The notes: a model not told the origin generated them from the letters alone. Positions 2,283-57,818 are shown, counted from the first letter of the stretch. The stretch: 64,000 bases of DNA from Candidatus Poseidoniales archaeon (GCA_038116375.1 JAYNUQ010000006.1:5176-69175), one strand, 5' to 3'. Made by a program: numbers and translations.

Positions 2283-2385
2283 GACCCAAGGCCGATGACC
2301 GAGACTCTTGAACCCTCGGTAGAGCCTCACAAACGAACGGGGCTCCATCCAATCTTTGATGAGGTTCCCCGCGTTGGTTAGCGAC

Positions 2386-10375: not shown

Positions 10376-12022
10376 GTGAACCCTTCTGTAGACTCGGTTC
10401 TTGAGACGGACCTTCCTCCAAAGGTTCAGCGGTTTCATCCCGCATGGATGATCCCCGTCGGGTTTGTGTTGGCTTACAGCGAAGTCGTGCTCCGATTGCT
10501 GGTGGGAAAGGATATCGTCGACGCCATTTGGCCGCATGCTGTTCGTTCACTCGAGTGGACGCTGGCCCTCCGTGATGCGCCTGCATTGGTGCTCTCTTCC
10601 GTGTTCGTCATGGCTGGATTTGCCTACGTGTTGCGCAGATCGGTGGCATCGGGCGCTCTTGAAGGGCGCTTGAAATCCGTACCGTACGGGGCCGCTGGCT
10701 TACTTCTTGGCCTCATCTCAATGCACTTCTTGATGGATGTGTTCTATCTCCGCGGTGCTTTTTTGCTCCTTCCAACGCTGATGGGTTGGGCTCTGGCGTG
10801 CCTCTTGGTGGGACTTGAGGGGCCACCTTCGCTTCGCTCCCCTGACCAACAGCAACTCTCCGGTTGGCGGGTTGCCCACGTCGTGGGTGTCTTCTTCGCT
10901 GCGTGGTTGGTAATGCCGGGGGTGCCGGCGGTGATGGGGTTCGCTCCTTCGCCCCCAGAGGCTCCTTCAATGGGCTACGGGTCGTTTCCCGGCCCGCACA
11001 ACGTGGAGCAATACCGTTCTCCCTACGTCCTCCCCGACGCCGTAAAACGGGTGCAGGGTGAACTGGAAGACGATGTTGAGTTCAGCGTCTATGTCACGCT
11101 TCCCGTTCTTGCTGAGGACTTGCCCGTGAGTACCCTGCCGCTGGCCATTTTACTCCACGGGTTTGGCTATCCAGATGTTGAGGCCTACCAAGACTGGATC
11201 AACCACCTTGCCGCCAAAGGAATGGCGGTAGCGTTCATCCAATACCCGTCGGATTTGCGCCCAGAAGGGCACGAGGACCACGAAGCCACCGACCGAGAGG
11301 GTATGTCGGATTTCATGCAGCATGTTCAGCGAGACCTGGCGATTCGTGCAGCGCTCGACCATCTCGACCGGATTCTCCTCCAGCCTGAACGTGAGGCTCA
11401 ACTCGATGCACATCTTGGACAACGCACGGTCGACCCTACGGCGTTGTGGGCGGGCGGACACAGCCTTGGTGCGTCCTACACCTTCACCACCCTCGACGAA
11501 GTGCTCCCCCGTGGATGGGGGTCCGAGGCACTCGTTGTTGCTCTGGAATCCCCAGCAAGCAGGCCCATGCAGGCGGACCTTCAGCCCGATTTGTCAGCGC
11601 TTCCCGAGGAGACCATGGTCCAGATTGGTGTGCCGCAAGACGACATGAGCGTCGGCATGTGCCCCGGTGCGTTTCATCAGCAACTTTTCTCCTCCCTTTC
11701 CGCTGAGCGAAACCAATTGCTGGAAATACAGTCTGACCATTATGGATTCCCCCGTTTGGTGGCCAGCCACTACCTCCAAACCGACCCTGCACACGACACC
11801 TTGTCGGATTGGAGCTTTTATCGGCGCATCGATGCCCAAGCGGATTACCTGGTTGCTCATGGCCGTCAAGACACGTTCACCGCCGACTGGGCGTTCCAGT
11901 ACATGACCGATGAGACGATGCTCACGGGCATGGGTTCGTGGTCGGACGGTACACCGGTGCTCCCTCTCGTCTGGCACACCGATGCCATCAACAGCGTGGC
12001 CTCGTTTGGGGACTGCGTCTAG
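10376..12022 (+). CDS. membrane-anchored alpha/beta hydrolase (dienelactone hydrolase / PAF-acetylhydrolase-like)
   Basis: GTG start. About 5 N-terminal TM helices are followed by LAILLHGFGY (oxyanion region) and the nucleophile elbow GGHSLGA (GxSxG). Confidence 0.7.
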   Translation: MNPSVDSVLETDLPPKVQRFHPAWMIPVGFVLAYSEVVLRLLVGKDIVDAIWPHAVRSLEWTLALRDAPALVLSSVFVMAGFAYVLRRSVASGALEGRLKSVPYGAAGLLLGLISMHFLMDVFYLRGAFLLLPTLMGWALACLLVGLEGPPSLRSPDQQQLSGWRVAHVVGVFFAAWLVMPGVPAVMGFAPSPPEAPSMGYGSFPGPHNVEQYRSPYVLPDAVKRVQGELEDDVEFSVYVTLPVLAEDLPVSTLPLAILLHGFGYPDVEAYQDWINHLAAKGMAVAFIQYPSDLRPEGHEDHEATDREGMSDFMQHVQRDLAIRAALDHLDRILLQPEREAQLDAHLGQRTVDPTALWAGGHSLGASYTFTTLDEVLPRGWGSEALVVALESPASRPMQADLQPDLSALPEETMVQIGVPQDDMSVGMCPGAFHQQLFSSLSAERNQLLEIQSDHYGFPRLVASHYLQTDPAHDTLSDWSFYRRIDAQADYLVAHGRQDTFTADWAFQYMTDETMLTGMGSWSDGTPVLPLVWHTDAINSVASFGDCV

Positions 12023-12486: not shown

Positions 12487-13251
12487 TCAGGCGCCACTGC
12501 GTTGGGTCTTGCAACCCACACCCCAGTCAGGCTGCTCTTCCATGGCACGTCGTGTTGCCTCAAGAAGTCGGTCTTCAGGGGTCGGTTTCTGGGGGTTTGC
12601 TGAGACCGTAGCAAGACTCAAATGATAGTCCATTTCCTTCCAATATTCCAATTGAATTTTCAAATTTTCAATTGAAATTTCGCCATCAGGACTTCCAGTT
12701 GAAATTTGAATATCCCTCGGGTTGAGATGCATCCCCTTTCCGAGGCATTTCTGGACCGCTTCTTTCCCCGTCCACATTCGGAAGACATCTTCAGGCGTGT
12801 TGCGAAGATGCTCAAGTTCGTGCCCTTTTGCCATCATGTCGTAGGCGTTCTCAGCCAGCTGACGCCCCAGAGGTTCTGCATCCAATCCCACGAGGAGGGC
12901 GGGGGGTGCGAGGGCCACGAAGGCCGTGCCGTGGCTATGAGAGATGGAGATGTTGGGCAGGGGTGTCCGTTTCCACACGCCCTGAATGAAGCGCAAGGAC
13001 GGCGCCCTGTACTCGTTACGCACAACTTCGATCACCGAGAGGTCGGACACGCCCTCCGTCTGCAAGGCCTTGCCCAACAACCATCGTCCTGTTAGGTGTT
13101 CGATTCTGCGTTTCTCGGTAGCGAACGTGGCGACTTCTTCCGCATGCGCCAACGGAACATCACCCACCCCCATGTTCCTCACCGGGGTTGAGAACACATG
13201 CACCGCCGTGTTCTTGAAAGCCGATAATCGCTCAAAAGGTGGCGCCTGCAT
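12487..13251 (-). CDS. Sfp-type 4'-phosphopantetheinyl transferase
   Basis: Motifs are ISISHSHG, VGLDAEPL and WTGKEAVQKCLGKG (the W/F-x-x-KE-A/S-x-x-K signature). The ATG at 13251 lies 10 nt after the synthase stop and is preceded by GAGG. An alternative ATG at 13293 would overlap the synthase by 32 nt. Confidence 0.85.
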   Translation of the reverse strand: MQAPPFERLSAFKNTAVHVFSTPVRNMGVGDVPLAHAEEVATFATEKRRIEHLTGRWLLGKALQTEGVSDLSVIEVVRNEYRAPSLRFIQGVWKRTPLPNISISHSHGTAFVALAPPALLVGLDAEPLGRQLAENAYDMMAKGHELEHLRNTPEDVFRMWTGKEAVQKCLGKGMHLNPRDIQISTGSPDGEISIENLKIQLEYWKEMDYHLSLATVSANPQKPTPEDRLLEATRRAMEEQPDWGVGCKTQRSGA

Positions 13252-13261
13252 GATGACAGCC

Positions 13262-16200
13262 TCATCGCTCAAGAGCAAAGCGCTGATGTTCATCGACCGT
13301 AGCCATGGCCTTCAGCCGAAGACCCTTGAGGGCCATGACAGGAGCATCGTCTTCGCCAACAATCAGGACATCATGCTCGGTGACACCGTCATCGAGCGAG
13401 CCTGTGTGTACGCTTCGGAGGCGGAGCACTTCGTCTGCATCGGGGACCCGGAGCATGGTTGACCAGCCAATGCCCACAGGGAGGCTGCTGTAGCCAAGCA
13501 GTTCCATGGCCACCAACCCAGCATTCTGGAATCCAGCTTCAATCAACATTGGAAGTGCTTCAAGAAGGACCTGCTCGCCTTCAGCCTCAAGCATGAATTG
13601 GTCGGTTGCAGGAAGTTGATGGCGCATCAGTGCACGACCGTCAATGCCCAAGCGTTCGCCTTCTCCCACACCGCGCAGAACACCCCCGTGGGATTGGAAT
13701 CGTGGGCCGTGGAAATATCGGTCGTAAATGAACGAAGCGGGATGCAGCAATTGACCTGGAGGTGGCGTTCCGATTTGAGGCAACTCGTCCACCTCACGCT
13801 GCAGGAACGGACAGAGGTCATCGCATTTTTCAACAAGGCGAACCAGTGCTTCGTGATGCTCTCGCTCTCCGAACACCTCACCCTTTGAATTTGCCAAGTC
13901 GGAAACCAATCGACATCGCACCCAGGTCAAGTCGTCTTCTGCTCGCTCCACGGTGACATCCACACGAACCGTCATGGGTCCTTTGAGCAGTTTGACGGGA
14001 AGGCCAAAGGTGACGTCTTCAAATCCTGCAAGGCACGTCGAAGGTCGCAGAAGAAGGGCCGACTGAGCAAACATCTCCAGCGCCATCACGCCAGGATGAT
14101 ACGGAACGCCCTCGATGGCGTGGTCCACCAAGAACGGATGGTCCTCAGTGGAAAGGGTCGACTGGGTCACCATGTGCTGTCCCTCTTCCAGTGAAAGCAC
14201 CTTATCGATGAAGGGGAAACGGGCCGGGTCCGCCATGGTGGCGGCCATGCTCGGGGGAAGCATGAGCGGGGCCTCGCGGAAGGAGGTGTGTTGGTCCATC
14301 AATCCCAGTGAACCGCAGCCGAGGACACGGCGCTTGCCTCCTCGCAAGGCTTCACCGACAAAGATCGAAACGCCATCCTCAACCGAGAGGGTCTCAATAC
14401 CAGCGGCTGCAAAGACCGCTTCAATGGACCCGCGTGTTGCCATACCGACATCCCTCCAGCCGGTCCATCCGATGGCGACGCCGCGGCAGCCCGTGGTGGC
14501 GGTCAGCCGAGCCATTTCAGCATCCAGCACGGAGTTGGCTGCGGCGTAATCGGTTTGGCCACCGTTGCCGAACCGTCCAGCCACGCTGGTGAAACAGCAG
14601 GCAAATTCAGGCACATCTCGCCCTGAAGCGTTCACGGCGGCCAGCAAGGCTCGCCACCCGTCGATTTTCACGCGAACCACGCGATCGAAGACATCGTAGT
14701 CTTTGTCGGCCACCAGTTTGGAATCTTCCAGACCTGCACCGTGAACAATGCCCGTGATGGGGCGTCCCAGCGACGCTCCGAGATCTTCAAGACCCTCCTG
14801 GTCCATGACATCAACCGAATGATAAGTGGCATGATTTCCTGTCTTTGCAATGGCATCCAGCGTGAGGTAAACGTCTCGACTTCGAGTGAAACGTTGCCAT
14901 GCTCGGTTCCATTCCACCATGGTCACCTTGCCGTTCTCGCTGGCTTCGACCAAGCGCTCTCGCAGGGCGTTCTTTTCGTCGGTGAGTTGAGCGTCGGACC
15001 AGTCAATCCACGACGCTGTTGACTCAATCAGCGTCGAACGCCCGAGGAGTTCGAAACGTGCGCCCGCTTTCGGACTGGCTTGAGCGACACCAATGATTGA
15101 AGCCGCCGTTACGCCTGAACCGCCACCGGAGACCAACCACGTGTCCTCAGCGGTCAAGGGTTGAATCTCGTCCACCAAATCCTCAGCAAAGGCGACAAGG
15201 GCCCATCGACGGCCGCCGATGTCGAGCCCAATTTCCACTTCACCTGCGAGGCCAAAGAGGTCCTCCTCAATCCGCTCGGCCGCCGCTGCATCGTCAAGGA
15301 TGAAGTCGGGGTGCAGGTCGAGGGCGCGACATCGAAGGTCTGGGCGCTCGAAGGCGTAGGATTTGGTTACCCCACTCGCAGCACATTGCAGTGCGTTGAA
15401 CCGGTCTCCCTTGTTGCCATGTCGTCCGTCAAGTGCAGTCACCGAAGCGACGATTCCTGATGCATCGGACGGGAGTGTTCCACCGAGTTCCTTGAGCAAT
15501 CCGAACCATCCGTGGGCGGCGAGCGCTATTTGCGAGGAGGGGTGAGCGTCTTCCATCCATTGTTCTGAGGCGAGTTTGAGGGGCGCCATGTGAACCAAAC
15601 CCGCGAGTTGGACACCGCTCAGTTGTTCGGCAATCCAGGCAAGATGTTCAGGTTGCTCCGGGTCGGCTCGAAGGACGGTCCGACCGCCTTCGTCTTGACT
15701 GGAAGCATCACGGATGCGGCTTTCAAACCCGATCCGAACCGCTTTGAGGCCTCGAGCCTCCATGCGTTGACAGAAGGCCTCTGCGATGCCCCAGCCATCA
15801 TCGGAGACGACCACGGTGCCCCTCGGTTGAATCGGTGCAGAAACGCCCGGGCAGGCCTCAATTTCAACCTGCCATCGTCGGGTGCCCTCGTGAGAGCTGA
15901 CCGCCTTGGTTGGTGTGCTGGCGTCAATTACGGATTCAGTCGGGTCGGATGCGGTGGGTTTGGATGAAACCTCACCGCCCTGCATCTTGACGATGTAGGC
16001 CGTAAAGTGGTTCAGCGTGGGATGGTCGGCCAAAACGAAATCTTCGTCAACAGGAAGGGCGAAACGGTCCCGGATTTCTGCCATGATTTCGGCTTGTTTC
16101 ACCGTATCAATGCCCAATTCGCCTTCGAGGTCTTGGTCCAACTCAATGAAGTCAGCTGGATAACCCGTGTGGTCGACCACCACCGAAATCAAAACGCCCT

Positions 16201-19200
16201 CAATGTCCGGATGGGTCCCTGACGTCGCTGCTGAAGGGGAAGGCGCGAGTGTTGCGGATGGTTCTGCAGGCGCAACGTGCTGGGGCGCAGGTGCTGGAGC
16301 GACCGTCTCGGTTGGAACGGGCGCACCACCGTCTTGCATGCGTTGGATGTAGCCAATCATGTGATTCAGTGTTGGATGGTCAGCGAGAACAAAGTCCTCG
16401 TCGAGGGGGAGACCGAACTTGTCACGGATGTCTGCCATGATTTCGGCTTGTTTTACCGTATCAATGCCCAACTCGCCTTCGAGGTCCTGGTCGAGTTCAA
16501 TGAAGTCGGCAGGATACCCAGTGTGGTCAACCACCACCTCAACCACAGCAGCGGTCATCGCAGCGTCGTCAACGGGTGCTGAAGGAGCGGTTGTCGAGGC
16601 CGGTGCAGGAGAGGCAGCCACCGGTGCGGGTGCTTCCGGAGCAGGGTCTGATGTTGCCGGTGCCACAGGCGCTGCGTTCGAGGGCGCTGGCGCTTCACCG
16701 CCCGTCATGTGTTGGATGTAGCCGATCATGTGGTTGAGGGTTGGATAGTCGGCGAGGACGAAATCCTCGTCAACGGGTAAGTTGAATTTCTCACGAATGT
16801 CTGCCATGATTTCGGCTTGCTTCACCGTGTCAATCCCCAATTCACCTTCGAGGTCTTGGTCAAGTTCAACAAAGTCCGCTGGATAACCCGTATGCTGAAC
16901 CACGACTTCAACCACCGTAGCGACCGTACCTTCGTCGTTGACGGTTGAGGCTGGTGCGGGCGCAGGAGCGGCTGGCGATGGGACCGGTGGAGTGGGTTCG
17001 GGCGCGGGGGCCGCTTGAGGTACAGGGGGCTCGGAGGTTGACGTAACCGAAGGCTTGCCTTCCCACGACTCGGTGATGGACCACGGTTCACCCTGGATGC
17101 CTCCGTGGAGGTTGTTTTCACCGTCAACATAGGCGACCAGTTTGTTCTGCAGCACCCGCATGACGACATCGTCGGTTCCCGCAAGGCCACGAGCCCAAGC
17201 CAACAACCTACCGCCGTCAATGCGGTCGCCATCAACGGGCCAACGTCGCATCAGAGACAACGCAATTTGAGAGCCAAATCCGGCCGCGAAGCGAAGACCG
17301 TATTCCAATTCGGGGTAGTCGCCTCCTGTTGAAAGATTCAGGTCGCCCAATTCAGGGTCCTTTTCCTTGTGATTGGCGATGGGTGGGATTCGCCGGGTTT
17401 TCAGACCGTAGAACATGCTCGCATCCTCGATGCCCACCGCCATCGGGTGCCCGGTGAACCCTTTCGTGTTGGCGATGACGAGACGATTGGTGGAGTCACC
17501 GAAGGTATCGCGCAGCGCCTTGACCTCGGATTGCGCCGAACCGCCTCGAGCGGGCGTGTAGGTTTCGTGAGAGAAAAAGACGGTATTGGGAGCCATGGCG
17601 TGGCGGTCAAGGCCCCAACGTCGCTCCATGTCGGTGATGAAGCCGTTCACGACCTGCCCGACGTGTTCAACGTCCAGCCGCGTACCGTGGTAGGCCGAGT
17701 TGGCCGTGGTGGAACCGAGGAATTCAGCGATGGGTTGTACACCACGTTGTTGCGCCTCTGAATGCCGTTCAACAACAAACGCCGCCGCACCCATGCCCAA
17801 AATTAGACCGTTTCGTCGTCGGTCAAACGGCAAGGCCGTTTCTTCAACCACGTTGTTTGTGGCCGCTGCACCTGAGGCTGCAAACCCACCTGCGATCCAC
17901 TCCCAGAGGTCATCACCGGTCACGTCGTCACCGCTGATGATGACCACACGGTCCACACGCCCTGCATCCAACCAATCTTCCGCCACGCCGAAAGCGGCGG
18001 TAGCAGAGGCACATGCCAGATTGATGGTGGTGTTCGGCCCACGGATGCCCGTGTATTGGGCGAATTGTGAATGGCCCATGTTGAGCGTTTGGAACAGATA
18101 GCGACGGTCGAACCGCCCCTCACCGTCGTCGCCGTTGTGTTTGGCGTGCTTGGAAGCCATCTGCAAACCTGGGAAACATGATGAGAAGACGATGCCGGTA
18201 CGTTCACGCTGAACTTGGGGCACCTGCCAGTTGCGAATCAAGCGCAATCCACCTTTCCCAATCTGCTCGACTGGGGTGAGCGGAATGCCAGCATCCCTCA
18301 GGGCCAAGAGCCCTGCTGCTACGGCAAGCTGAGTGCTGATGTCCCACGCCACGATGGCTTTCGGGTCAATGCCAAACTCTTCGGCCAGGTCAAAGGCGCC
18401 CTTGAGGCCCGCGAGTTGCGGTATATCGCCGAACACCGTCGCTTGGTCCATGTTGACCGAGCCGTCCCTGCCTTTGATGAGGCGGACGATGTTCTTGTCG
18501 AGCAACCGTTGCTTGTATTCATCGGAAACCTCACTGATGCACGTTTCACCACGAACAAGTTTCTCAAAGGCATCCTCTGAAAACACACGATCCATCCCTG
18601 GCAATCCAAGCGAGATTCCAGTGACCACGTACGGGTCAACATCCCGCTTCGAAGCAGGCTGAAGCATCGATACCGTCTGCACGGGAGCGGCCTTGAGGGT
18701 CGGTGGAGCCGACACGGGAGCCATGGGTGTCCACGAGGAAGGCGGCATGCGGACCCAACGAGCGAGGTCACCCGCCGTGACGGCGCCAGACCCGTCAAAT
18801 TCAGCATCCGTTTGGGCCTCAGAAGCGATGGTGGACACGACGCTCTGCACCTCTTCGGGCGAGAGGCCGAGGCCGGTTGTCAACGAGACATGGCCGTGGC
18901 AGAACGATGCAGGGTAGCCGCTGAACCGAGCAATTCGGTCGCCAACGTACGCTTTGATGGCTTGGTCCCTTGCATAGTCCGTATCCATGGGACCTGATTG
19001 AACGGCCACAGGTGCCGGTGCAGCAGTGGATACGCCGCTTCCAGGCAGAGGGCGCGCTCGAGTGCGCAGCGACTCCAAGGCCGCCGTTGAAGTGGTCGGC
19101 GACATCGGTGATGCGGTGCGGGCCTCAACGGGCCCTGCCTTGAACGCATCCTGAAGGGCATCGGAATCCAAGGCCGGCCACGACGGTGGGCGACCTGCGA

Positions 19201-22084
19201 GCGCCAGTGCGCCAATCGCCGCCATGAAACTGGCAATTCCACCCTGCTTGGGATGGTTGGTCATGATGGGGACGTGAGGTTGGTCCTCGAGAATTTGCAT
19301 CGCAAACATCGTCAAGGCTCGCTTTGGGCCCACCTCGATGAAAATACGTCCGCCCGCAGCGTACATCGTCTCAATTTGTTTGGTCCACTCGACCGATGAG
19401 GCCATTTGCGGTGCTAATTTTTCCAAGATCGCCGACTTTGAGTTTGACCCTTCAACGGGATAAAACGATCCGTCAACGTTCGCCGTGATGGGGACTTCTG
19501 GCCAGCGAATTTCCAAACCCTCCAAGAATCGGCGAAGCGGCTCGTTGGCGGGCGCAACGATGCGGGAATGGAAAGCGTGTGATGTTGCGAGGGCAACGCT
19601 TGAGAAGCCCTGTTCCTCAAACCTCGCCATGGCGGCCTTCACCGGTTCAGTCTCTCCAGCGATGACCGTCATCTTGGGGGAATTTTTGTTGGCCGCGATG
19701 ACGTAGCCTTCGGTCGCCTCAAGCACGGCCTCAACCGCTTCATAAGGCGCAGTAACGCTGGCCATCAAGCCTTTGTCGTCAATCTCAACCGAACCCATCT
19801 CTGTTCCACGGGCTGCAGCGGCTCGCAGTGCGCCGTCCATGTCCAAAATACCCGACGACATGAGGGCTGCATACTCGCCAAGTGAATGGCCTGCGACCAT
19901 GTCGGGCGTGTGGCCGTAGGATTGGAGGGTGCGTTCAATGGCCAAATCGGCCGTCAGCATCGCTGGCTGCGTGTACTCGGTTTGCTTCAGCTTGTGTTCC
20001 GCTTCCTTGAGTTCCTCTTTGTTGAGGGATGAGCGTAACACGAATCCCGAGAGGGTTTCACCTCCAAGCACGTCAACCATGGTCTCATCTGCTTGCGCCC
20101 ACACATCCGAAGGGGCGGTGAAGCGTTGAACAAGGTCAGCGGTCATGCCAACGTATTGACTGCCTTGACCGGGGTACATGTGGACGGTTTTGGCCTTGTC
20201 AGGCATGGAGGGTTGATCGGTCACGAGAACGCCTTGCGCTTGCAAGAACCCCCATTTCTCTGAATCCATCATCGCCTGGCCAGCCAGCGTTTGCCGCTTG
20301 GCAAATTCCGCCCACGAGGTGGCGACCAGCGCCATTCGGAAGGCTTGGCTGGAATCAAACGAAGCACTGGCGGTTTGGAGCGCTTCAGACAACCGGCGTC
20401 CTCTTGGGTCATCATCAAACAGCGGCCCCTCAAAGTTCACAGCGGCGAGTTGTCCATGGAGGGCTTCGAGGCTGGTGTCGGAGAGGAGCAAGACGCCGCC
20501 TTCGATCGCTTTCAACGCTTCATGAGACAGGGTTGCAGGAAGGGAACCGTCGAAGATGGAGGGTGCTGAGGCGGTCGCTTGTCCGCTGTAGGCTGCCCAG
20601 CGTGCATCCCAATCCGAAGCCATGGGTACGTGGTAATCGGGCTCATAGCCCTCGAGTGCGATGTGGAAATTTGTGCCACCAAATCCGAATGCGGACACAC
20701 CCGCACGGCGTGGATGTGAAGGTGGACGAGGCCATTCAAGAGGTGCTGTGGGCACGAAAAACGGAATGTTGGACCAGTCGACCGTCGGGTTCGGCTTCTC
20801 GAAATTGGCACTTGGGGGAATGGTTCGGTGGTGCAAAGCCATGACCGATTTCATAATGCCCGCAATGCCTGCCGCAGCCTTGAGGTGCCCGATTTGGGAC
20901 TTGATGGACCCGACGGCGACGTTTCCAGTGCCCTCGACACCGGTCCACAAGCGAGAAAGGGTGGAAAGTTCCGTGGCGTCTCCAACCTTGGTGGACGTCC
21001 CGTGGGCTTCCACCAGTTCAACCGACGACGCAGGATATCCTGCTTGGCTGTATGCGCGGGCAATGGCCTGGATTTGACCCCGTTGGCTGGGAGCCGTGAT
21101 GCCTTTGCCACGCCCGTCCGAGGAACCTCCAATGCCCCGAATGACGCTGAAGATTTCATCGTCATCTCGAATGGCGTCGCTCAGTCGTTTGAGCACCAAA
21201 ACGCCTGCACCCTCGCCCATCACGAAACCGTTGGCTCGTGCATCAAAAGGCGAAGAGTGCGACGGCGAAAGCGCACCGATGGCGGAAAATTTCGCAAAGG
21301 TCGCAGGGTCCATGGTTCGGTCGGTGGCGCCCGCAAGCATGACGTCGACTTGTCGCGTCTGCAACAAACGACACGCATCCAACACAGCGGCCATCGACGA
21401 GGCGCAAGCGGCGTCCATGGCGTGATTGGGGCCTTGCAAATCCAACAGGTTGGCAACACGCCCCGATACGACGTTCGCCAACTCCCCGGGCATCGTGTCT
21501 TCATCAACGCGAGGCGTTCCTTCCAAGATTGACTCGGTAAAGGCATCGCTGTTGGCCTCGGGAAGGCCGTGCTGTTTTGCCAAGGATTCGGTATGGTGCG
21601 ACCACACCCTGATGTTGGACAAGTTTCGATTTTCCCCGCCCAAGGCGTTGGCAAACACCACGCCGGTTCGACTGCGGTCGATATCGGCAGACTCGCCGTC
21701 GTAGCCTGCATGCTCAATGGCGTCGGCTGACACCGTCACCGCCCAAAGTTGGCAGGGATCAATTTGAGGGAGGGTCCCCGGAGGCTGCCGCCAGCGACGC
21801 CAATCAAATTCTGCATCGGAAACAAGAGCCCCAATTTTGGCATAGGTGAAGCCTTCCGTGTGTTCGCCCGGCCCGCCTTCTTTCCAAAAGTGGTTGATTG
21901 GACCAGGCCACCGGCCTTCGGGAAGCGGGCGAATGCTGACCTTGGCGTCGAGAATGTTTTGCCAAAAGGCATCGATATCGTCGGCATCGGGCATCAACGC
22001 CCCGAGTCCGATAACAGCGATGGGCTCAAAGGGACCTTGCTCAATCCCCTCGCACGGTTTACCATCTGCTGTGGTCAACGACAT
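13262..22084 (-). CDS. PfaA-like iterative type I fatty-acid/polyketide synthase, 2,940 aa: KS-AT-(ACP-like)-KS-ACP-ACP-ACP-KR-DH
   Basis: KS1: DAACASS (Cys227, codon 21404-21406), EAHGTST, SQIGHLKAAAG. AT: GQGSQ, GHSLGEY (Ser734), SHAFHS. KS2: NLACASA (Cys1358, codon 18011-18013), SHETYT, GFTGHP. Three ACPs carry LGIDTVKQAEIMA. KR: Rossmann motif VSGGGSGVTA and YAAAN. DH: HAIEGVPYHP (HxxxGxxxxP). Confidence 0.95.
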   Translation of the reverse strand: MSLTTADGKPCEGIEQGPFEPIAVIGLGALMPDADDIDAFWQNILDAKVSIRPLPEGRWPGPINHFWKEGGPGEHTEGFTYAKIGALVSDAEFDWRRWRQPPGTLPQIDPCQLWAVTVSADAIEHAGYDGESADIDRSRTGVVFANALGGENRNLSNIRVWSHHTESLAKQHGLPEANSDAFTESILEGTPRVDEDTMPGELANVVSGRVANLLDLQGPNHAMDAACASSMAAVLDACRLLQTRQVDVMLAGATDRTMDPATFAKFSAIGALSPSHSSPFDARANGFVMGEGAGVLVLKRLSDAIRDDDEIFSVIRGIGGSSDGRGKGITAPSQRGQIQAIARAYSQAGYPASSVELVEAHGTSTKVGDATELSTLSRLWTGVEGTGNVAVGSIKSQIGHLKAAAGIAGIMKSVMALHHRTIPPSANFEKPNPTVDWSNIPFFVPTAPLEWPRPPSHPRRAGVSAFGFGGTNFHIALEGYEPDYHVPMASDWDARWAAYSGQATASAPSIFDGSLPATLSHEALKAIEGGVLLLSDTSLEALHGQLAAVNFEGPLFDDDPRGRRLSEALQTASASFDSSQAFRMALVATSWAEFAKRQTLAGQAMMDSEKWGFLQAQGVLVTDQPSMPDKAKTVHMYPGQGSQYVGMTADLVQRFTAPSDVWAQADETMVDVLGGETLSGFVLRSSLNKEELKEAEHKLKQTEYTQPAMLTADLAIERTLQSYGHTPDMVAGHSLGEYAALMSSGILDMDGALRAAAARGTEMGSVEIDDKGLMASVTAPYEAVEAVLEATEGYVIAANKNSPKMTVIAGETEPVKAAMARFEEQGFSSVALATSHAFHSRIVAPANEPLRRFLEGLEIRWPEVPITANVDGSFYPVEGSNSKSAILEKLAPQMASSVEWTKQIETMYAAGGRIFIEVGPKRALTMFAMQILEDQPHVPIMTNHPKQGGIASFMAAIGALALAGRPPSWPALDSDALQDAFKAGPVEARTASPMSPTTSTAALESLRTRARPLPGSGVSTAAPAPVAVQSGPMDTDYARDQAIKAYVGDRIARFSGYPASFCHGHVSLTTGLGLSPEEVQSVVSTIASEAQTDAEFDGSGAVTAGDLARWVRMPPSSWTPMAPVSAPPTLKAAPVQTVSMLQPASKRDVDPYVVTGISLGLPGMDRVFSEDAFEKLVRGETCISEVSDEYKQRLLDKNIVRLIKGRDGSVNMDQATVFGDIPQLAGLKGAFDLAEEFGIDPKAIVAWDISTQLAVAAGLLALRDAGIPLTPVEQIGKGGLRLIRNWQVPQVQRERTGIVFSSCFPGLQMASKHAKHNGDDGEGRFDRRYLFQTLNMGHSQFAQYTGIRGPNTTINLACASATAAFGVAEDWLDAGRVDRVVIISGDDVTGDDLWEWIAGGFAASGAAATNNVVEETALPFDRRRNGLILGMGAAAFVVERHSEAQQRGVQPIAEFLGSTTANSAYHGTRLDVEHVGQVVNGFITDMERRWGLDRHAMAPNTVFFSHETYTPARGGSAQSEVKALRDTFGDSTNRLVIANTKGFTGHPMAVGIEDASMFYGLKTRRIPPIANHKEKDPELGDLNLSTGGDYPELEYGLRFAAGFGSQIALSLMRRWPVDGDRIDGGRLLAWARGLAGTDDVVMRVLQNKLVAYVDGENNLHGGIQGEPWSITESWEGKPSVTSTSEPPVPQAAPAPEPTPPVPSPAAPAPAPASTVNDEGTVATVVEVVVQHTGYPADFVELDQDLEGELGIDTVKQAEIMADIREKFNLPVDEDFVLADYPTLNHMIGYIQHMTGGEAPAPSNAAPVAPATSDPAPEAPAPVAASPAPASTTAPSAPVDDAAMTAAVVEVVVDHTGYPADFIELDQDLEGELGIDTVKQAEIMADIRDKFGLPLDEDFVLADHPTLNHMIGYIQRMQDGGAPVPTETVAPAPAPQHVAPAEPSATLAPSPSAATSGTHPDIEGVLISVVVDHTGYPADFIELDQDLEGELGIDTVKQAEIMAEIRDRFALPVDEDFVLADHPTLNHFTAYIVKMQGGEVSSKPTASDPTESVIDASTPTKAVSSHEGTRRWQVEIEACPGVSAPIQPRGTVVVSDDGWGIAEAFCQRMEARGLKAVRIGFESRIRDASSQDEGGRTVLRADPEQPEHLAWIAEQLSGVQLAGLVHMAPLKLASEQWMEDAHPSSQIALAAHGWFGLLKELGGTLPSDASGIVASVTALDGRHGNKGDRFNALQCAASGVTKSYAFERPDLRCRALDLHPDFILDDAAAAERIEEDLFGLAGEVEIGLDIGGRRWALVAFAEDLVDEIQPLTAEDTWLVSGGGSGVTAASIIGVAQASPKAGARFELLGRSTLIESTASWIDWSDAQLTDEKNALRERLVEASENGKVTMVEWNRAWQRFTRSRDVYLTLDAIAKTGNHATYHSVDVMDQEGLEDLGASLGRPITGIVHGAGLEDSKLVADKDYDVFDRVVRVKIDGWRALLAAVNASGRDVPEFACCFTSVAGRFGNGGQTDYAAANSVLDAEMARLTATTGCRGVAIGWTGWRDVGMATRGSIEAVFAAAGIETLSVEDGVSIFVGEALRGGKRRVLGCGSLGLMDQHTSFREAPLMLPPSMAATMADPARFPFIDKVLSLEEGQHMVTQSTLSTEDHPFLVDHAIEGVPYHPGVMALEMFAQSALLLRPSTCLAGFEDVTFGLPVKLLKGPMTVRVDVTVERAEDDLTWVRCRLVSDLANSKGEVFGEREHHEALVRLVEKCDDLCPFLQREVDELPQIGTPPPGQLLHPASFIYDRYFHGPRFQSHGGVLRGVGEGERLGIDGRALMRHQLPATDQFMLEAEGEQVLLEALPMLIEAGFQNAGLVAMELLGYSSLPVGIGWSTMLRVPDADEVLRLRSVHTGSLDDGVTEHDVLIVGEDDAPVMALKGLRLKAMATVDEHQRFALER
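13265..14227 (-). other. synthase domain: PKS-type double-hotdog dehydratase (aa ~2620-2940)
   Basis: HPFLVDHAIEGVPYHPG matches HxxxGxxxxP. The C-terminal position after KR is the same as in PfaA-type proteins. Confidence 0.75.
14315..15877 (-). other. synthase domain: ketoreductase (aa ~2070-2590)
   Basis: TWLVSGGGSGVTAA NADPH-binding motif, plus the catalytic region GNGGQTDYAAAN. Confidence 0.8.
15980..16927 (-). repeat. three tandem ACP domains (aa ~1720-1795, 1843-1917, 1963-2035) separated by Ala/Pro-rich linkers; a direct DNA repeat with a period of about 354-369 nt
   Basis: The protein core HTGYPADF(I/V)ELDQDLEGELGIDTVKQAEIMA(D/E)IR(E/D)(K/R)F..P.DEDFVLAD.PTLNH is near-identical three times. 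Nucleotide similarity is visible directly (for example gatttcggcttg(t/c)tt(c/t)accgt(a/g)tcaat at 16086, 16440 and 16809). Confidence 0.9.
17240..18637 (-). other. synthase domain: second, divergent ketosynthase (aa ~1150-1615)
   Basis: The thiolase-fold pattern retains Cys (NLACASAT) and two His (FFSHETYTPARGG, KGFTGHPMAVG). The motif contexts differ from KS1. Confidence 0.8.
19280..20191 (-). other. synthase domain: malonyl-type acyltransferase (aa ~632-935)
   Basis: YPGQGSQY, GHSLGEYAAL and SHAFHS motifs. Confidence 0.9.
20645..22027 (-). other. synthase domain: ketosynthase 1 (aa ~20-480)
   Basis: Canonical Cys-His-His KS motifs DAACASS / EAHGTST / IGHLKAAAG. Confidence 0.9.
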
Positions 22085-22093
22085 TTGAACACC

Positions 22094-22885
22094 TCAATTC
22101 ATGATGCTCTCGGGCACCATCGTGATGGAATAACCTGCATCAACATACACGCACTGTCCAGTGACGCCCGCTGAAAGCGGGCTGGCAAGCCAAAGCGTTG
22201 CCCCAGCGACATCGTCCTGGCTGACGTTCCTCCGCAGAGGGGCATTGGCTTCCACATGGTCGAGGATTCGGTCAAAACCTGGGATGCCGCTGGCGGCAAT
22301 GGTTCGAATCGGGCCCGATGAAATCGCGTTGACGCGATGGCCCTCTGGGCCGAGGTGGCACGCCAATTCTCGCGTCCAGCACTCAAGGGCTGCTTTGGCC
22401 ATTGACATGATGCCGTAGCTTGGGACAAACCGATTTGAGGCCGCATAAGTGAGCGTGATGGTCGACGAGCCTGGGTTGAGATAAGGAAGCGCGTGCTTGA
22501 GGCACCGTTGAAGGGAATTGGCCGAGATGGTCATCGCCGTGTTGATGTCGTCGTCTTCAACAAAGAGAATCGGACGGTCAAAGCAAGAGCGTGGTGCAAA
22601 GCCGATGGCGTGAATGAGAATGTCGGCTTTTTTGCCCGGGTGCTCGGCGGCAAAGGCCGTGAAAAATTCCTGCGTGGTGGCGTCCGAAGCGACATCAAGG
22701 GGGTAAAACCCTCCAATAGCGGGCAACTCGTCCTTGAGCTTGAACACTCGGCTCATGAATCGCTTTTGGTACCCCAGATAGAGGGTGACGCCCGCGGCGG
22801 CCAATTGCTTGCAAATCGCCCAAGCGATGGAGTCTTCGCTCGCCACTCCGAAGACAAAGGCCGTTTTTCCTTCAAGTCCAAGCAT
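22094..22885 (-). CDS. fabI: enoyl-[acyl-carrier-protein] reductase, SDR type (FabI)
   Basis: The protein aligns by eye along its whole length with E. coli FabI. Matching segments are GKTAFVFGVASEDSIAWAI, the catalytic Y/K region SYGIMSMAKAALE, and VNAISSGPIRTIAASGI. It ends 9 nt before the synthase ATG. Confidence 0.9.
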   Translation of the reverse strand: MLGLEGKTAFVFGVASEDSIAWAICKQLAAAGVTLYLGYQKRFMSRVFKLKDELPAIGGFYPLDVASDATTQEFFTAFAAEHPGKKADILIHAIGFAPRSCFDRPILFVEDDDINTAMTISANSLQRCLKHALPYLNPGSSTITLTYAASNRFVPSYGIMSMAKAALECWTRELACHLGPEGHRVNAISSGPIRTIAASGIPGFDRILDHVEANAPLRRNVSQDDVAGATLWLASPLSAGVTGQCVYVDAGYSITMVPESIMN

Positions 22886-23002: not shown

Positions 23003-24103
23003 TCAAAGGTCAGCAAAAACATCGTCGAAGTCGTCATCGTCGTCTTCGGAAAACAAGTCGTCGAGTTCTGAAAGATCCAAATCGTCAAGATCGTCCACAT
23101 CCTCGGGTTCATCATCGACTTCCACAGGAGGCACGTACATTGGCTGGGAATTGGCTCGACGACGCAGGGTTCGTGCGAGCGCGACGACGAAAATCAGACC
23201 AAAGAGAACAGCAGCACCGATGCTGCCGTACATGACCAGGGTGTCCTTGTCAACCTCTTCAAGACCGCCCCCAAGCCCCCCAGCCGTGTTGCTGGCTTCA
23301 AGTTGAATCGAAATGCTGCTCTCGCTCATGGGCGCTTGGTCATCGTTCTCACTGGCGGCCTGGAAGGTTACTTGGAACCGTTCATCCGCGGCAACCTCTG
23401 AAGGTGCTCTGATGGTCAATTCTCGAACGGTCGAGATGCCATCTTCGGCAACGTCCTCGGCGACAAAGGTGCCAGCAGGGAAGGTAAAGCCTGCTTCTTC
23501 GAGTTCAGCAGCGTTGGTGATGGTCACCTGAATTTTGTCGTCGTCGTTCCCGTTGTTTTGGAACTGGAAGGAAATTTTCGTATCGTCGCCACCGCTCAAG
23601 GTGCGAGTGCTCTTGTCGGAAATTTCCAAATCGACCATGCCAAAGGTGGCGATGTTGAGGTCGCCGCTCACCGTGGCGTTTGAGGAAAGGGCTTCGGGCC
23701 AGTCGAGCATGGCGACGTTGGTCACCGTTGCAACGAGCGTGAAGTCATAGGAGAGTTCGGAGGACAAACGGGTTTGACCGTTGAAGGTGACGGTGAAGTC
23801 TTCTTCCTCATCTGGACCGAGGTCAAAGGTGTCCTCACCCAGCATCATGTCAACTTCAATGCCGTCCCATTCTTTCTCCACGCTGATGGATTCTTGGAAG
23901 GAAGAGGGGTTCTTCACCGTGCACGTGATTTCAACCACGGGGTCGTTCAATGGATGAACGTCCATCTCCGGTTGCTTTTCCTCGCAGTCGATTTCGACCC
24001 CCGGGGCCGTTGGAACCTGTGCGGTGGCGAGAGGAGCAAAACTGCAGAGCATCAGCGCCATGACCATCATGCCCCAGCGGCGCGTAGACAGCATGGCCCT
24101 CAC
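23003..24103 (-). CDS. secreted type-I membrane-anchored protein with a poly-acidic cytoplasmic tail (hypothetical)
   Basis: Signal peptide MRAMLSTRRWGMMVMALMLCSFAPLATAQ. C-terminal TM helix IGAAVLFGLIFVVALA followed by RTLRRR. The tail is DDEPEDVDDLDDLDLSELDDLFSEDDDDDFDDVFADL. Confidence 0.7.
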   Translation of the reverse strand: MRAMLSTRRWGMMVMALMLCSFAPLATAQVPTAPGVEIDCEEKQPEMDVHPLNDPVVEITCTVKNPSSFQESISVEKEWDGIEVDMMLGEDTFDLGPDEEEDFTVTFNGQTRLSSELSYDFTLVATVTNVAMLDWPEALSSNATVSGDLNIATFGMVDLEISDKSTRTLSGGDDTKISFQFQNNGNDDDKIQVTITNAAELEEAGFTFPAGTFVAEDVAEDGISTVRELTIRAPSEVAADERFQVTFQAASENDDQAPMSESSISIQLEASNTAGGLGGGLEEVDKDTLVMYGSIGAAVLFGLIFVVALARTLRRRANSQPMYVPPVEVDDEPEDVDDLDDLDLSELDDLFSEDDDDDFDDVFADL

Positions 24104-37808: not shown

Positions 37809-37896
37809 GAGATTGTCTCAGCCGAGTCAATCTATGAGCAAAGCGGTTCGAGAACGAGAAGTTCACGCGATGGGCCACCTCGTTTCACAGCGTCCA

Positions 37897-38964: not shown

Positions 38965-38987
38965 GTCCCAACACAGGCAAAGATTGT

Positions 38988-57796: not shown

Positions 57797-57818
57797 AGGT
57801 GGGCTTGCTGCACGAAGT

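What the first reader, a model, noticed from the sequence alone, without database searches (positions are those of the whole stretch)
12487..22885. Complete bacterial-style ACP-dependent acyl-chain synthase operon (fabI, PfaA-like megasynthase, Sfp PPTase) inside an archaeal chromosome
Seen in the sequence:
- Three tightly packed minus-strand genes with a 9-nt and a ~10-nt spacer.
- They encode FabI, a 2,940-aa synthase with KS, AT, KS, 3 ACP, KR and DH domains, and a phosphopantetheinyl transferase.
- Together they supply every activity for iterative, fully reducing chain elongation on a carrier protein.
- The flanks are archaeal: tRNA and carS at 8.0-8.9 kb, a TBP-fold gene at 25 kb, and orc1/cdc6 at 41 kb.
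- By eye, the operon's GC and codon style match the flanks.

Established knowledge: archaeal membranes are built from isoprenoid ethers, and most archaeal genomes lack ACP, ACP synthase and type I/II FAS. PfaA-type multi-ACP synthases are bacterial or protist enzymes.

Inference: this archaeon may make fatty-acyl or polyketide lipids in parallel with archaeol. Possible supporting functions in the same window are a biotin carboxylase (malonyl-CoA supply), an acyl-CoA thioesterase and CoA-biosynthesis genes.
Basis: partly seen in the sequence, partly recalled or inferred. Interest (0 to 1): 0.85.

Follow-up and report, generated by a model that had tools for sequence, protein, structure and literature searches.

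The report
Archaeal carrier-protein fatty-acyl synthase operon
A three-gene operon for a bacterial-style, carrier-protein-dependent fatty-chain synthase is real and conserved across the abundant ocean archaea called Marine Group II. It belongs to an uncharacterised bacterial family, and its carrier domains have threonine where every textbook carrier has serine.

Summary
On the minus strand, fabI (22885-22094), a 2,940-aa synthase (22084-13262) and an Sfp-type PPTase (13251-12487) are separated by 9 and 10 nt. The synthase reads KS-AT-KS-ACPx3-KR-DH, with all catalytic residues intact.

The window comes from Poseidonia, a Marine Group II archaeon. It is not a chimera. There is no compositional break, and the order TBP-TatD-ORF-fabI-synthase-PPTase-M28 recurs in about 55 independent Poseidoniales assemblies.

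The synthase is not a PUFA PfaA. It matches the "Type R secondary lipid synthase" of Shulse & Allen 2011: one KS-MAT-"CLF"-ACPn-KR protein plus a PPTase, product unknown, known then only from bacteria. Bacterial relatives pair it with an acyl-CoA-dehydrogenase-like gene and an ACC. Poseidoniales pair it with FabI instead.

One feature was unexpected. All 377 carrier domains in 121 Poseidoniales proteins, and 420 of 459 in the wider family, carry Thr at the phosphopantetheine attachment position. Nearly all the others carry Ser.

The most likely function is iterative synthesis of saturated long acyl chains on Thr-linked carriers. Where those chains go (membrane esters or a specialised lipid) is inferred, not shown. 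Earlier MGII papers mention only "bacterial-like fatty-acid genes" in general terms.

The parts
22094..22885 (-). fabI: enoyl-ACP reductase, 263 aa. It is the first gene of the operon and the trans-acting ER.
   Evidence: Pfam adh_short_C2 at 2e-69, and the best NCBIfam hits are all FabI. It matches Thermus FabI (1ulu) over its full length at 7e-57, with Y157-x6-K164 kept. It is 80-98% identical across Poseidoniales loci. dN/dS is about 0.01-0.03, with dS saturated.
13262..22084 (-). Megasynthase, 2,940 aa: KS-AT-KS-ACPx3-KR-DH. It is of the Type R secondary lipid synthase kind.
   Evidence: More than 120 full-length homologs at 70-94% identity are found in Poseidoniales. The architecture matches Type R.
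20645..22027 (-). KS1, residues ~20-480, PfaA-like and paired with the AT.
   Evidence: ketoacyl-synt plus Ketoacyl-synt_C. Catalytic residues are C227/H361/H400. The best stretch against TIGR02813 covers residues 21-948.
19283..20185 (-). AT domain, residues 634-934, a malonyl-type acyltransferase.
   Evidence: Acyl_transf_1 at 6e-38 and the fabD model at 3.5e-58. Motifs GQGSQ, GHS734LG and HAFH836 are present.
16985..18277 (-). KS2, residues ~1270-1700. It is FabF-like with an intact Cys-His-His triad. This is the domain called 'CLF' in the Type R description.
   Evidence: The best solved structures are FabF (2gqd, 3e-26), with C1358, H1506 and H1546 aligned to the catalytic triad. The motifs SHETYTPxRGGSA and NTKGFTGH are invariant across the family.
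15977..16939 (-). Three tandem carrier (ACP) domains, residues ~1716-2036. Thr sits at the phosphopantetheine attachment position: T1753 (16826-16828), T1876 (16457-16459) and T1994 (16103-16105). All three codons are ACG.
   Evidence: Three PP-binding matches. In phmmer alignments to solved ACPs and PigH, the Thr falls under the DS(L/I) serine. The ACP1 domain contains no Ser at all. An AF2 model of ACP1 (pLDDT 79) places the Thr at the N-cap of helix II, and Foldseek gives TM 0.80-0.89 to ACPs. 377 of 377 homologous domains in Poseidoniales have Thr.
14405..15139 (-). KR catalytic subdomain, residues ~2316-2560.
   Evidence: Pfam KR at 4e-23. GGGSG at 2320, K2473, S2500 and Y2513 in YAAAN.
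13265..14227 (-). PKS-type dehydratase, residues ~2620-2940. It is not FabA-like.
   Evidence: PKS_DH_N at 2e-10. H2655xxxGxxxxP, HGPRF at 2792 and E2849xxxQ.
12487..13251 (-). Sfp-type 4'-phosphopantetheinyl transferase, 254 aa from the ATG at 13251. The longest ORF starts at 13293.
   Evidence: ACPS at 5e-11 plus 4PPT_N. The motifs KRRIEHLTGR, ISISH (P1b' hShxH), GLDAE and WTGKEAVQK are shared with PPTases next to bacterial relatives. It lies directly downstream of the synthase in all Poseidoniales loci with enough flank.

Best explanation
This is a vertically inherited core operon of Marine Group II archaea (Poseidoniales). It encodes a self-contained, iterative, carrier-protein-dependent fatty-acyl synthase of the bacterial 'Type R secondary lipid synthase' family.

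**Proposed cycle (inferred from the domains).**
1. The PPTase converts the three tandem carrier domains to their holo form. Because the attachment residue is Thr, the phosphopantetheine would be attached to T1753, T1876 and T1994.
2. The AT loads malonyl units from malonyl-CoA.
3. Two catalytically competent ketosynthases elongate the chain: the PfaA-like KS1 and the FabF-like KS2. They probably divide the work by chain length.
4. KR and the PKS-type DH produce trans-2-enoyl-ACP.
5. The separately encoded FabI reduces it. In bacterial relatives, an acyl-CoA-dehydrogenase-like neighbour probably plays this role.

The loop has no FabA-type isomerase, so the product should be a saturated, probably long, acyl chain. 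No release domain is present, so hand-off must be by a trans-acting acyltransferase or thioesterase encoded elsewhere.

**Shown here:** gene and domain content, intact catalytic residues, conservation, synteny, purifying selection and family assignment.

**Inferred:** Thr pantetheinylation, division of labour between the two KS domains, saturated product, the release route and the fate of the lipid.
For: - **Domains and catalytic residues:**
- **Operon structure:** 9- and 10-nt spacers with SD-like motifs.
- **Conservation:** more than 120 full-length homologs at 70-94% identity, named Poseidonia or Poseidoniales, on contigs up to 2.04 Mb.
- **Synteny:** the order TBP-TatD-ORF366-fabI-synthase-PPTase-(ORF182)-M28 is the same in about 55 species-level Poseidoniales genomes. 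These include a Thalassarchaeaceae (MGIIb) contig and a single-cell genome.
- **Single origin:** the 63 Poseidoniales KS2 sequences form one clade in an NJ tree.
- **Purifying selection:** dN/dS is about 0.04-0.05 for the synthase, 0.01-0.03 for fabI and 0.12-0.20 for the PPTase.
- **No compositional break:**
- **Family:** the Type R definition is one KS-MAT-CLF-ACP(3-6)-KR protein plus a downstream PPTase with P1b' hShxH, sometimes with ACC. The nearest bacterial KS2 sequences (61-64% identity) come from Acidobacteriota, Acidimicrobiia, Binatia and others. These loci carry ACC directly downstream, and most also carry an ACAD-like gene directly upstream.
- **Thr as a working nucleophile:** the attachment position is Thr in 377 of 377 Poseidoniales domains. 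In the wider family it is Thr in 420 and Ser in 33 of 459 domains, with almost nothing else. The fold is a canonical ACP with Thr at the N-cap of helix II.
Against: - No biochemical or expression data exist for any member of this family. As of the 2011 survey, the product of Type R synthases was unknown.
- To my knowledge, phosphopantetheinylation of Thr has not been demonstrated. From memory, the E. coli ACP S36T mutant is unmodifiable.
- No release enzyme, ACC carboxyltransferase/BCCP or glycerol-phosphate acyltransferase lies next to the operon.
- Direct orthology to the named Type R reference proteins (Koribacter, Solibacter, Roseiflexus, Elusimicrobium) was not tested.
- The NJ tree is crude and its root is uncertain.
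Confidence: 0.72

Rival explanations
1. The operon makes a specialised 'secondary' lipid rather than bulk membrane fatty acids. The product would be, for example, a very long hydroxy or keto chain for a glycolipid, wax or hydrocarbon, as the related hgl and ars systems do. In this reading FabI acts only in some cycles.
For: The family was classified among secondary lipid synthases, whose characterised members make chains of C20 or longer. Two KS domains and tandem ACPs are typical of long-chain Pfa/Hgl-type systems. A FA_hydroxylase-superfamily gene with a flavoprotein reductase lies at 37.9-40.2 kb. No glycerol-phosphate acyltransferase lies nearby.
Against: The operon is retained by essentially every Poseidoniales species sampled, in genomes of 1.4-2 Mb. 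FabI is the most conserved gene of the operon. No tailoring, glycosyl-transfer or export genes are conserved next to it. In bacteria it sits with ACC, like a primary pathway.
Confidence: 0.3
2. The region is a bacterial fragment joined to archaeal DNA by mis-assembly or mis-binning.
For: The closest non-archaeal relatives are bacterial. The enzymes are of bacterial type.
Against: There is no break in GC, tetranucleotide or codon usage. The archaeal flanks (TBP, TatD, M28) are identical in about 55 independent assemblies from different studies and methods, including long contigs and a single-cell genome.
Confidence: 0.01
3. The carrier domains are dead because Thr cannot be pantetheinylated. 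The protein would then be a relic, or would work on CoA-bound substrates without its carriers.
For: From memory, Ser-to-Thr substitution abolishes modification of E. coli ACP. PROSITE and Pfam treat the Ser as invariant. The PPTase is divergent, with no solved-structure hit by sequence.
Against: The position is restricted to hydroxyl residues: Thr, and in a few lineages Ser. A dedicated PPTase is retained next to the synthase in both archaea and bacteria. Tandem carriers are kept at 2-5 copies. dN/dS is about 0.05.
Confidence: 0.08
4. The main role is to supply a short acyl-carrier intermediate such as octanoyl for lipoylation, as mitochondrial FAS II does, rather than to make lipids.
For: Poseidoniales are aerobic heterotrophs that lack FAS II. 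This is background inference, with no direct evidence here.
Against: Two KS domains, three carriers and a 2,940-aa enzyme are excessive for this role. No lipB or lipA lies nearby.
Confidence: 0.05

Closest known systems
Type R secondary lipid synthase cluster (Shulse & Allen 2011, PMC3098273). It is found in Koribacter, Solibacter, Elusimicrobium and Roseiflexus, and its product is unknown.
   Same: Both have one giant pfaA-like protein built KS-MAT-second KS ('CLF')-tandem ACPs (3-6)-KR, and both are followed by a PPTase with the P1b' hShxH motif (ISISH here). The 2011 description lists no C-terminal DH domain for this family; here a PKS-type DH follows the KR. The nearest bacterial relatives are Acidobacteriota and other soil and marine phyla, often with an ACC gene adjacent.
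   Different: The host is an archaeon, whereas the word 'archaea' does not occur in the 2011 survey's text. FabI lies directly upstream here, in place of the ~550-aa ACAD-like gene seen in most of the bacterial loci. No ACC is adjacent. The 'CLF' keeps its Cys-His-His triad, so it is a real KS. The 2011 paper does not mention the Thr carrier site.
PfaA of the PUFA synthase (pfaABCDE) and thraustochytrid subunit A.
   Same: Both have an N-terminal KS-AT, tandem ACPs, KR and a C-terminal PKS-type DH, and both work iteratively with a dedicated PPTase.
   Different: The TIGR02813 score is below its cut-off. An extra KS lies between the AT and the ACPs. There is no PfaB, no PfaC (KS-CLF with two FabA-type DH domains) and no PfaD (FMN-dependent ER). 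The ER is FabI. The carrier motif is GIDTV, not GIDSI. Without a FabA-type isomerase, cis double bonds are not expected.
Heterocyst glycolipid synthase HglE/HglC (Type F) and the Azotobacter ArsA system (Type P).
   Same: These are Pfa-related iterative synthases that make long, mostly saturated chains for specialised lipids.
   Different: They use several proteins and include KS-CLF-AT (HglC). Their products carry hydroxyl or keto groups. No FabI partner is described for them. They occur only in bacteria.
Archaeal ACP-independent fatty-acid synthase complex (ketothiolase/DUF35/FabG/MaoC; bioRxiv 10.1101/2024.07.05.601840).
   Same: It is proposed to make fatty acids in archaea.
   Different: That system is CoA-dependent, uses non-decarboxylative thiolase chemistry and has no carrier protein or PPTase. 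The operon here is malonyl- and carrier-dependent and of bacterial origin.
Bacterial FAS II FabI, and type I FAS of animals and of the Corynebacterineae.
   Same: The FabI here is a full-length, catalytically intact FAS II-type enoyl-ACP reductase. The overall chemistry is that of a fatty-acid synthase.
   Different: The other FAS II parts are fused into one protein, and there is no stand-alone ACP. Unlike type I FAS, it has no integrated MDR-type ER and no thioesterase or MPT release domain.

Membership tests
Type R secondary lipid synthase (Shulse & Allen 2011) | A single pfaA homolog with the domain order KS-MAT-second KS ('CLF')-ACP(3-6)-KR. | tested here: met
   The order is KS 20-480, AT 634-934, KS2 ~1270-1700, three ACPs 1716-2036, KR, then DH. 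The definition was read.
Type R secondary lipid synthase (Shulse & Allen 2011) | A PPTase gene directly downstream, carrying the P1b' motif hShxH rather than the PUFA-type (F/S)NxSH. | tested here: met
   The PPTase starts 10 nt after the synthase stop. It carries ISISH at residues 101-105.
Type R secondary lipid synthase (Shulse & Allen 2011) | The proximal KS groups phylogenetically with Koribacter, Solibacter, Roseiflexus and Elusimicrobium. | not tested
   The reference sequences could not be fetched by name. Indirect support: the nearest bacterial loci are Bryobacteraceae, Acidobacteriaceae, Terriglobia and others, with the same architecture and ACC downstream, as described for Koribacter.
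Type R secondary lipid synthase (Shulse & Allen 2011) | The second condensing domain is a chain-length factor, that is, it lacks the active-site Cys. | tested here: not met
   C1358/H1506/H1546 align with the FabF triad. The Cys is invariant in 8 diverse family members. The 'CLF' label of 2011 appears to be nominal for the whole family.
PUFA synthase PfaA (TIGR02813) | A score above the curated cut-off of the PfaA model. | tested here: not met
   The score is 833 bits against a cut-off of 1010.1, and the best stretch covers only KS-AT.
PUFA synthase PfaA (TIGR02813) | Partner genes pfaB (AT), pfaC (KS-CLF with two FabA-type DH domains) and pfaD (ER). | tested here: not met
   No such genes appear among the ORFs of the 64-kb window scanned with Pfam, nor in the conserved Poseidoniales neighbourhood.
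Carrier protein (PP-binding, PF00550) | A four-helix ACP fold and a Pfam match. | tested here: met
   Three PP-binding stretches. The AF2 model has TM 0.80-0.89 to solved ACPs.
Carrier protein (PP-binding, PF00550) | A conserved Ser in the D-S-(L/I) motif as the phosphopantetheine attachment site. | tested here: not met
   Thr sits at the aligned position in all three domains (GIDTV). ACP1 contains no Ser at all. The same holds in 377 of 377 Poseidoniales domains.
FabI enoyl-ACP reductase (SDR) | Full-length similarity to FabI, and the Tyr-x6-Lys catalytic pair. | tested here: met
   The match to 1ulu is 7e-57 over residues 3-255. Y157-x6-K164 is present. The NCBIfam FabI equivalog scores fall below their strict cut-offs (220 against 391), so this is a divergent FabI.
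Sfp-type PPTase | A two-lobed 4PPT_N plus ACPS architecture, with the GxD and W/FxxKEAxxK motifs. | tested here: met
   Pfam ACPS at 5e-11 and 4PPT_N at 4e-06. GLDAE and WTGKEAVQK are present.

The most novel reading that the evidence does not exclude
Two linked claims, neither excluded by the evidence.

1. **Threonine-linked carriers.** The Type R synthase family uses O-phosphopantetheinyl-threonine carriers installed by their co-encoded PPTases. The family has more than 1,000 clusters at 50% identity in public data, and it includes every Marine Group II archaeon sampled. To my knowledge this post-translational linkage has not been described, and current ACP motifs and annotation rules exclude it.

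2. **Acyl lipids in an archaeon.** In Poseidoniales this enzyme is the source of straight-chain fatty acyl groups for glycerol-3-phosphate ester or mixed lipids. Poseidoniales lack G1P dehydrogenase but have G3P dehydrogenase and PlsC-like genes. The most abundant surface-ocean archaea would then build part of their membrane with bacterial-type acyl chains made on a carrier protein.
Probability: 0.35. Interest if true: 0.9.

Novelty: new variant of a known kind. Interest (0 to 1): 0.72.

Why it matters
**The lipid divide.** Archaea are described as lacking ACP, ACP synthase and FAS I/II, and this is one pillar of the 'lipid divide'. Here an entire, globally abundant archaeal order keeps an intact carrier-dependent synthase, its activating enzyme and a FabI under strong purifying selection. 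This gives a concrete, clonable three-gene candidate for the 'putative fatty-acid pathway' invoked in the mixed-membrane hypothesis for Marine Group II. It also bears on which lipids these organisms contribute to marine biomarker records such as GDGT and TEX86.

**Carrier-protein biochemistry.** The near-universal Thr at the carrier attachment site of this large family challenges the 'invariant serine' rule. If confirmed, it would define a new PPTase specificity. It would also mean that motif-based tools mis-score these carriers as inactive.

Tried and rejected
**Literature (all ten searches used).**
- Searches combining MGII or Poseidoniales with PKS, fatty acid, ACP, PfaA or BGC found no description of this operon.
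- A search for 'threonine instead of serine' together with phosphopantetheine found nothing.
- Villanueva 2017, Dibrova 2014 and Iverson 2012 are not held. What they say about MGII fatty-acid genes is therefore known only second-hand.
- Rinke 2019, Tully 2019 and Orellana 2019 mention fatty-acid degradation but no fatty-acid synthase. Deschamps 2014 lists 'fatty acid biosynthesis' only as a KEGG category of transferred genes.

**Computations that added nothing.**
- Tandem Repeats Finder found no DNA-level array across the ACP repeats.
- The sigma-70 and terminator scan is uninformative for an archaeon. Its three minus-strand 'promoters' are just the repeated GIDTV codons.
- The PPTase has no sequence match to any solved structure.
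- The divergent 3.0-Mb archaeal contig L001 could not be named, because all its proteins are singletons.
- The search seeded from an Acidobacteriaceae relative returned mostly partial proteins and did not name Koribacter or Solibacter.

**Ideas considered and rejected.**
- A PUFA synthase: no FabA-type DH and no PfaB/C/D.
- KS2 as a CLF: the catalytic Cys is present.
- A chimeric assembly: excluded above.

**A limit on the selection estimates.** dN/dS could only be estimated against close relatives, and dS is saturated (above 1.5), so the ratios are rough.

Full report
**1.

The fabI stop and the synthase ATG are 9 nt apart. If the PPTase starts at the ATG at 13251, its spacer is 10 nt. The 255-aa homolog in a related locus favours that start. 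Each gene has a GAGG-type motif upstream.

Pfam and NCBIfam identify the three products:
- The first is a FabI-type enoyl-ACP reductase (adh_short_C2, 2e-69).
- The second is a synthase with KS, AT, a second KS, three PP-binding domains, KR and a PKS-type DH.
- The third is an Sfp-type PPTase (ACPS plus 4PPT_N).

The catalytic residues can be read directly from the translation:

| Domain | Residues |
|---|---|
| KS1 | C227/H361/H400 |
| AT | GHS734LG and HAFH (malonyl-type) |
| KS2 | C1358/H1506/H1546 |
| KR | GGGSG, S2500, Y2513 |
| DH | H2655xxxGxxxxP and GPRF |
| FabI | Y157-x6-K164 |
| PPTase | ISISH, GLDAE, WTGKEAVQK |

FabI aligns over its full length with Thermus FabI (1ulu, 7e-57). KS2 aligns with FabF structures, catalytic triad included. 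It is therefore an active ketosynthase and not a chain-length factor.

**2. The host is archaeal and the assembly is sound.**

The flanks encode tRNA-Gly, CDP-archaeol synthase, a TBP-fold protein and TatD. They also encode Orc1/Cdc6, an HTH_10 regulator and a PPAT-DUF359 fusion.

Composition gives no sign of a foreign insert:
- GC is flat at 0.55-0.60.
- The operon's tetranucleotide distance to the rest of the window is 0.0099. Same-size control segments give 0.0098 +/- 0.0023.
- Codon usage correlates with flank genes at r = 0.88.
- Operon GC3 lies within the flank range.

The synthase has more than 120 full-length homologs at 70-94% identity. Where they are named, they are Poseidonia sp., Candidatus Poseidoniales or Poseidoniaceae, and some sit on contigs up to 2.04 Mb.

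A scan of one genome per GTDB species returned at least 600 stretches encoding this type of KS2. The best 80 include about 62 Poseidoniales-type contigs. In every one with enough flank (about 55), the gene order is TBP-TatD-ORF366-fabI-synthase-PPTase-(ORF182)-(ORF548)-M28 peptidase, the same as in the window. These include a Thalassarchaeaceae (MGIIb) contig and a single-cell genome.

The 63 Poseidoniales KS2 sequences form one clade in an NJ tree. Against close relatives, dN/dS is about 0.05 for the synthase, 0.01-0.03 for fabI and 0.12-0.20 for the PPTase. dS is saturated, so these figures are rough.

The operon is therefore an old, vertically inherited and selectively maintained part of the Marine Group II genome. 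It is not a contaminant.

**3. What family it belongs to.**

It is not a PUFA-synthase PfaA. TIGR02813 scores 833 against a cut-off of 1010 and matches mainly KS-AT. An extra KS lies between the AT and the ACPs. No PfaB, PfaC or PfaD genes occur in the window.

An exhaustive profile-free search with residues 1231-2080 (KS2 plus the ACPs) found 1,108 clusters at 50% identity with E <= 1e-30. Many are proteins of 2,900-3,300 aa with KS2 at the same position. Named members and loci come from the following groups:
- Acidobacteriota, including Terriglobia, Bryobacteraceae, Thermoanaerobaculia and Holophagales.
- Acidimicrobiia, including Ilumatobacteraceae.
- Binatia, Myxococcota, Calditrichota, Chloroflexota and Verrucomicrobiota.
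- One Heimdallarchaeota MAG.

Shulse & Allen (2011) defined exactly this arrangement as the 'Type R' secondary lipid synthase. It is one pfaA homolog, KS-MAT-CLF-ACP(3-6)-KR, followed by a PPTase. It occurs in Koribacter, Solibacter, Elusimicrobium and Roseiflexus, sometimes with an ACC gene between the two, and its product is uncharacterised. The text of that survey does not mention archaea. Its PPTase motif for Types M-T, hShxH, is present here as ISISH.

I could not fetch the named reference proteins. Membership therefore rests on architecture, the PPTase motif, the taxonomy of the nearest relatives and the ACC linkage, not on a tree that includes those proteins.

**4. What differs in the archaeal version.**

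In most of the bacterial loci, a ~550-aa acyl-CoA-dehydrogenase-like gene lies directly upstream of the synthase. In most of them a multidomain acetyl-CoA carboxylase (1,864 aa where the gene is complete) or a carboxyltransferase gene lies directly downstream. None of the bacterial loci has fabI.

Poseidoniales have fabI in the upstream position and no adjacent ACC. So does L001, an unnamed and more divergent archaeal contig of 3.0 Mb. FabI is the most conserved of the three genes, at 80-98% identity.

The simplest reading is that the enoyl-reduction partner was swapped, so this is a variant of the Type R system.

The Heimdallarchaeota homolog sits near ACC carboxyltransferase, a biotinyl protein, a KAS III-like gene and an Arf-family GTPase. 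It branches apart from the Poseidoniales clade, which suggests a separate acquisition.

**5. The unexpected feature: threonine carriers.**

All three carrier domains read EGELGIDTVKQAEIM. In phmmer alignments to solved ACPs and to the PigH di-ACP, the Thr lies under the phosphopantetheine-bearing Ser of the D-S-L/I motif. The ACP1 domain contains no serine at all.

An AlphaFold model of ACP1 (pLDDT 79) gives the usual helical bundle, with the Thr at the N-cap of helix II. Its best structural matches are ACPs, at TM 0.80-0.89.

With an HMM built from the three domains, the residue at the attachment position across the family is:

| Set | Domains | Thr | Ser | Other |
|---|---|---|---|---|
| 121 Poseidoniales proteins | 377 | 377 | 0 | 0 |
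| 148 representatives of the wider family | 459 | 420 | 33 | 6 |

Of the 33 Ser domains, 19 belong to two classical PfaA-like proteins and 5 to the Heimdallarchaeota protein.

The position is thus restricted to hydroxyl residues. A dedicated PPTase is retained next to the gene, and the tandem carriers are under purifying selection. Together these argue that the Thr is the working attachment site and that the carriers are not dead.

From memory, the E. coli ACP S36T mutant cannot be modified, and I know of no described phosphopantetheinyl-threonine. My one literature query on this found nothing, but that search was narrow. This claim is inferred from the sequences, not shown.

**6. The most likely mechanism.**

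The PPTase primes the three carriers and the AT loads malonyl units. KS1 (PfaA-like) and KS2 (FabF-like) condense, probably with different chain-length preferences, as reported for the two KS domains of DHA synthases (PMC11962503, abstract seen). KR and DH give trans-2-enoyl-ACP, and FabI reduces it in trans.

With no FabA-type dehydratase/isomerase, the product should be a saturated chain. There is no thioesterase, reductase or acyltransferase domain, so release needs a trans-acting enzyme encoded elsewhere.

They are 10-22 kb away and outside the ~10-kb flanks of the related loci I compared, so nothing ties them to the operon.

The fate of the chain is open. The literature reports that Poseidoniales lack G1P dehydrogenase but have G3P dehydrogenase and PlsC-like genes. 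It also reports that MGII-dominated waters lack intact polar GDGTs. That makes a membrane role plausible. The family's classification among secondary lipid synthases makes a specialised long-chain lipid the main rival.

**7. Novelty.**

Database annotations of these genes are generic, for example 'beta-ketoacyl synthase N-terminal-like domain-containing protein'. The MGII comparative-genomics papers I could read do not mention the synthase. Others speak only of 'bacterial-like fatty acid ... genes' or a KEGG category. A 2024 preprint still states that archaea encode neither FAS I nor FAS II and almost never ACP or ACP synthase.

The kind of system is known (Type R) but uncharacterised. The archaeal, FabI-partnered version and the Thr carriers appear undescribed, within the limits of a text search that lacks several key subscription papers.

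**Verdict.** It carries one biochemically surprising feature. It deserves heterologous expression and mass spectrometry.

Noticed in passing
L003, L004, L069-L085 (bacterial relatives): In Acidobacteriota, Acidimicrobiia, KSB1 and other bacteria, most loci with enough flank have the Type R synthase flanked on both sides. A ~550-aa acyl-CoA-dehydrogenase-like gene lies directly upstream. A multidomain ACC lies directly downstream, 1,864 aa where the gene is complete (L004, L084). The ACAD-like upstream gene is not part of the Type R description I read in the 2011 survey. The ACAD-like protein may be the family's usual enoyl reductase or a desaturase.
   Followed up: partly
L002 (Heimdallarchaeota MAG GCA_026702845.1, contig JADCLS010000015.1): An Asgard archaeon carries a 3,234-aa homolog of the same family, but with Ser-type carriers (GIDSV x5). 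It lies near ACC carboxyltransferase, a biotinyl-domain protein, a KAS III-like gene and an Arf/Ras-family GTPase. It branches apart from the Poseidoniales clade.
   Followed up: partly
window 10376-12022 (+): ORF548 has about five N-terminal hydrophobic segments and a C-terminal region with a GGHSLGAS serine-hydrolase motif, but no Pfam match. It lies two genes downstream of the PPTase on the opposite strand. It is conserved there in part of the Poseidoniales (42-77% identity). It could be a lipase, esterase or thioesterase.
   Followed up: partly
window 36468-40238 (-): A stand-alone biotin carboxylase (36468-37808) lies next to a fatty-acid-hydroxylase-superfamily protein (37897-38964) and a FAD/NAD-binding reductase (38988-40238). 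No carboxyltransferase or BCCP is adjacent. The hydroxylase-reductase pair might modify lipids.
   Followed up: no
window 26414-32308 (-) and 2356-7977 (+): Two giant ORFs are present. One is a 1,964-aa protein with no Pfam match at all. The other is a 1,873-aa protein whose only recognisable part is an S8 subtilase domain (residues 286-628).
   Followed up: no
window 50371-51261, 57591-58709, 59647-60426, 60436-61872: Beta-oxidation-type genes share the window with the synthase operon: two enoyl-CoA hydratases, a 3-hydroxyacyl-CoA dehydrogenase and an aldehyde dehydrogenase. The organism therefore encodes both breakdown and synthesis of acyl chains.
   Followed up: no
L061 (CAXRAI010000082.1, labelled Salinimicrobium sp.): A contig binned as a Bacteroidota genome carries the full Poseidoniales-type syntenic block (TBP-TatD-fabI-synthase-PPTase-M28). 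It nests inside the Poseidoniales clade, so it is almost certainly a mis-binned archaeal contig in a public MAG.
   Followed up: partly
window ~18780-18970 (synthase residues ~1040-1100): Between the AT and KS2 lies a segment, AYVGDRIARFSGYPASF...GLGLSPEEVQSVV, that resembles the start of the carrier domains (HTGYPADF...ELGIDTVKQAEI). It lacks the D-T/S site and was not picked up by the ACP HMM. It may be a degenerate carrier or a docking element.
   Followed up: no
L001 (ENA ERZ26167216, 3.0-Mb contig): An unnamed archaeal contig has the same TBP-TatD-fabI-synthase-PPTase-M28 block, but at only 50-57% identity for the synthase and 76% for FabI. All six looked-up proteins are singleton clusters. 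It seems to be a deep, unsampled relative of Marine Group II with a larger genome.
   Followed up: partly
window 23003-24103 (-): ORF366 lies between TatD and fabI. It has a signal peptide, a C-terminal membrane anchor and a very acidic tail, and it evolves fast (24-85% identity). It looks like a surface protein and not a lipid enzyme, although it is syntenic with the operon throughout the order.
   Followed up: partly
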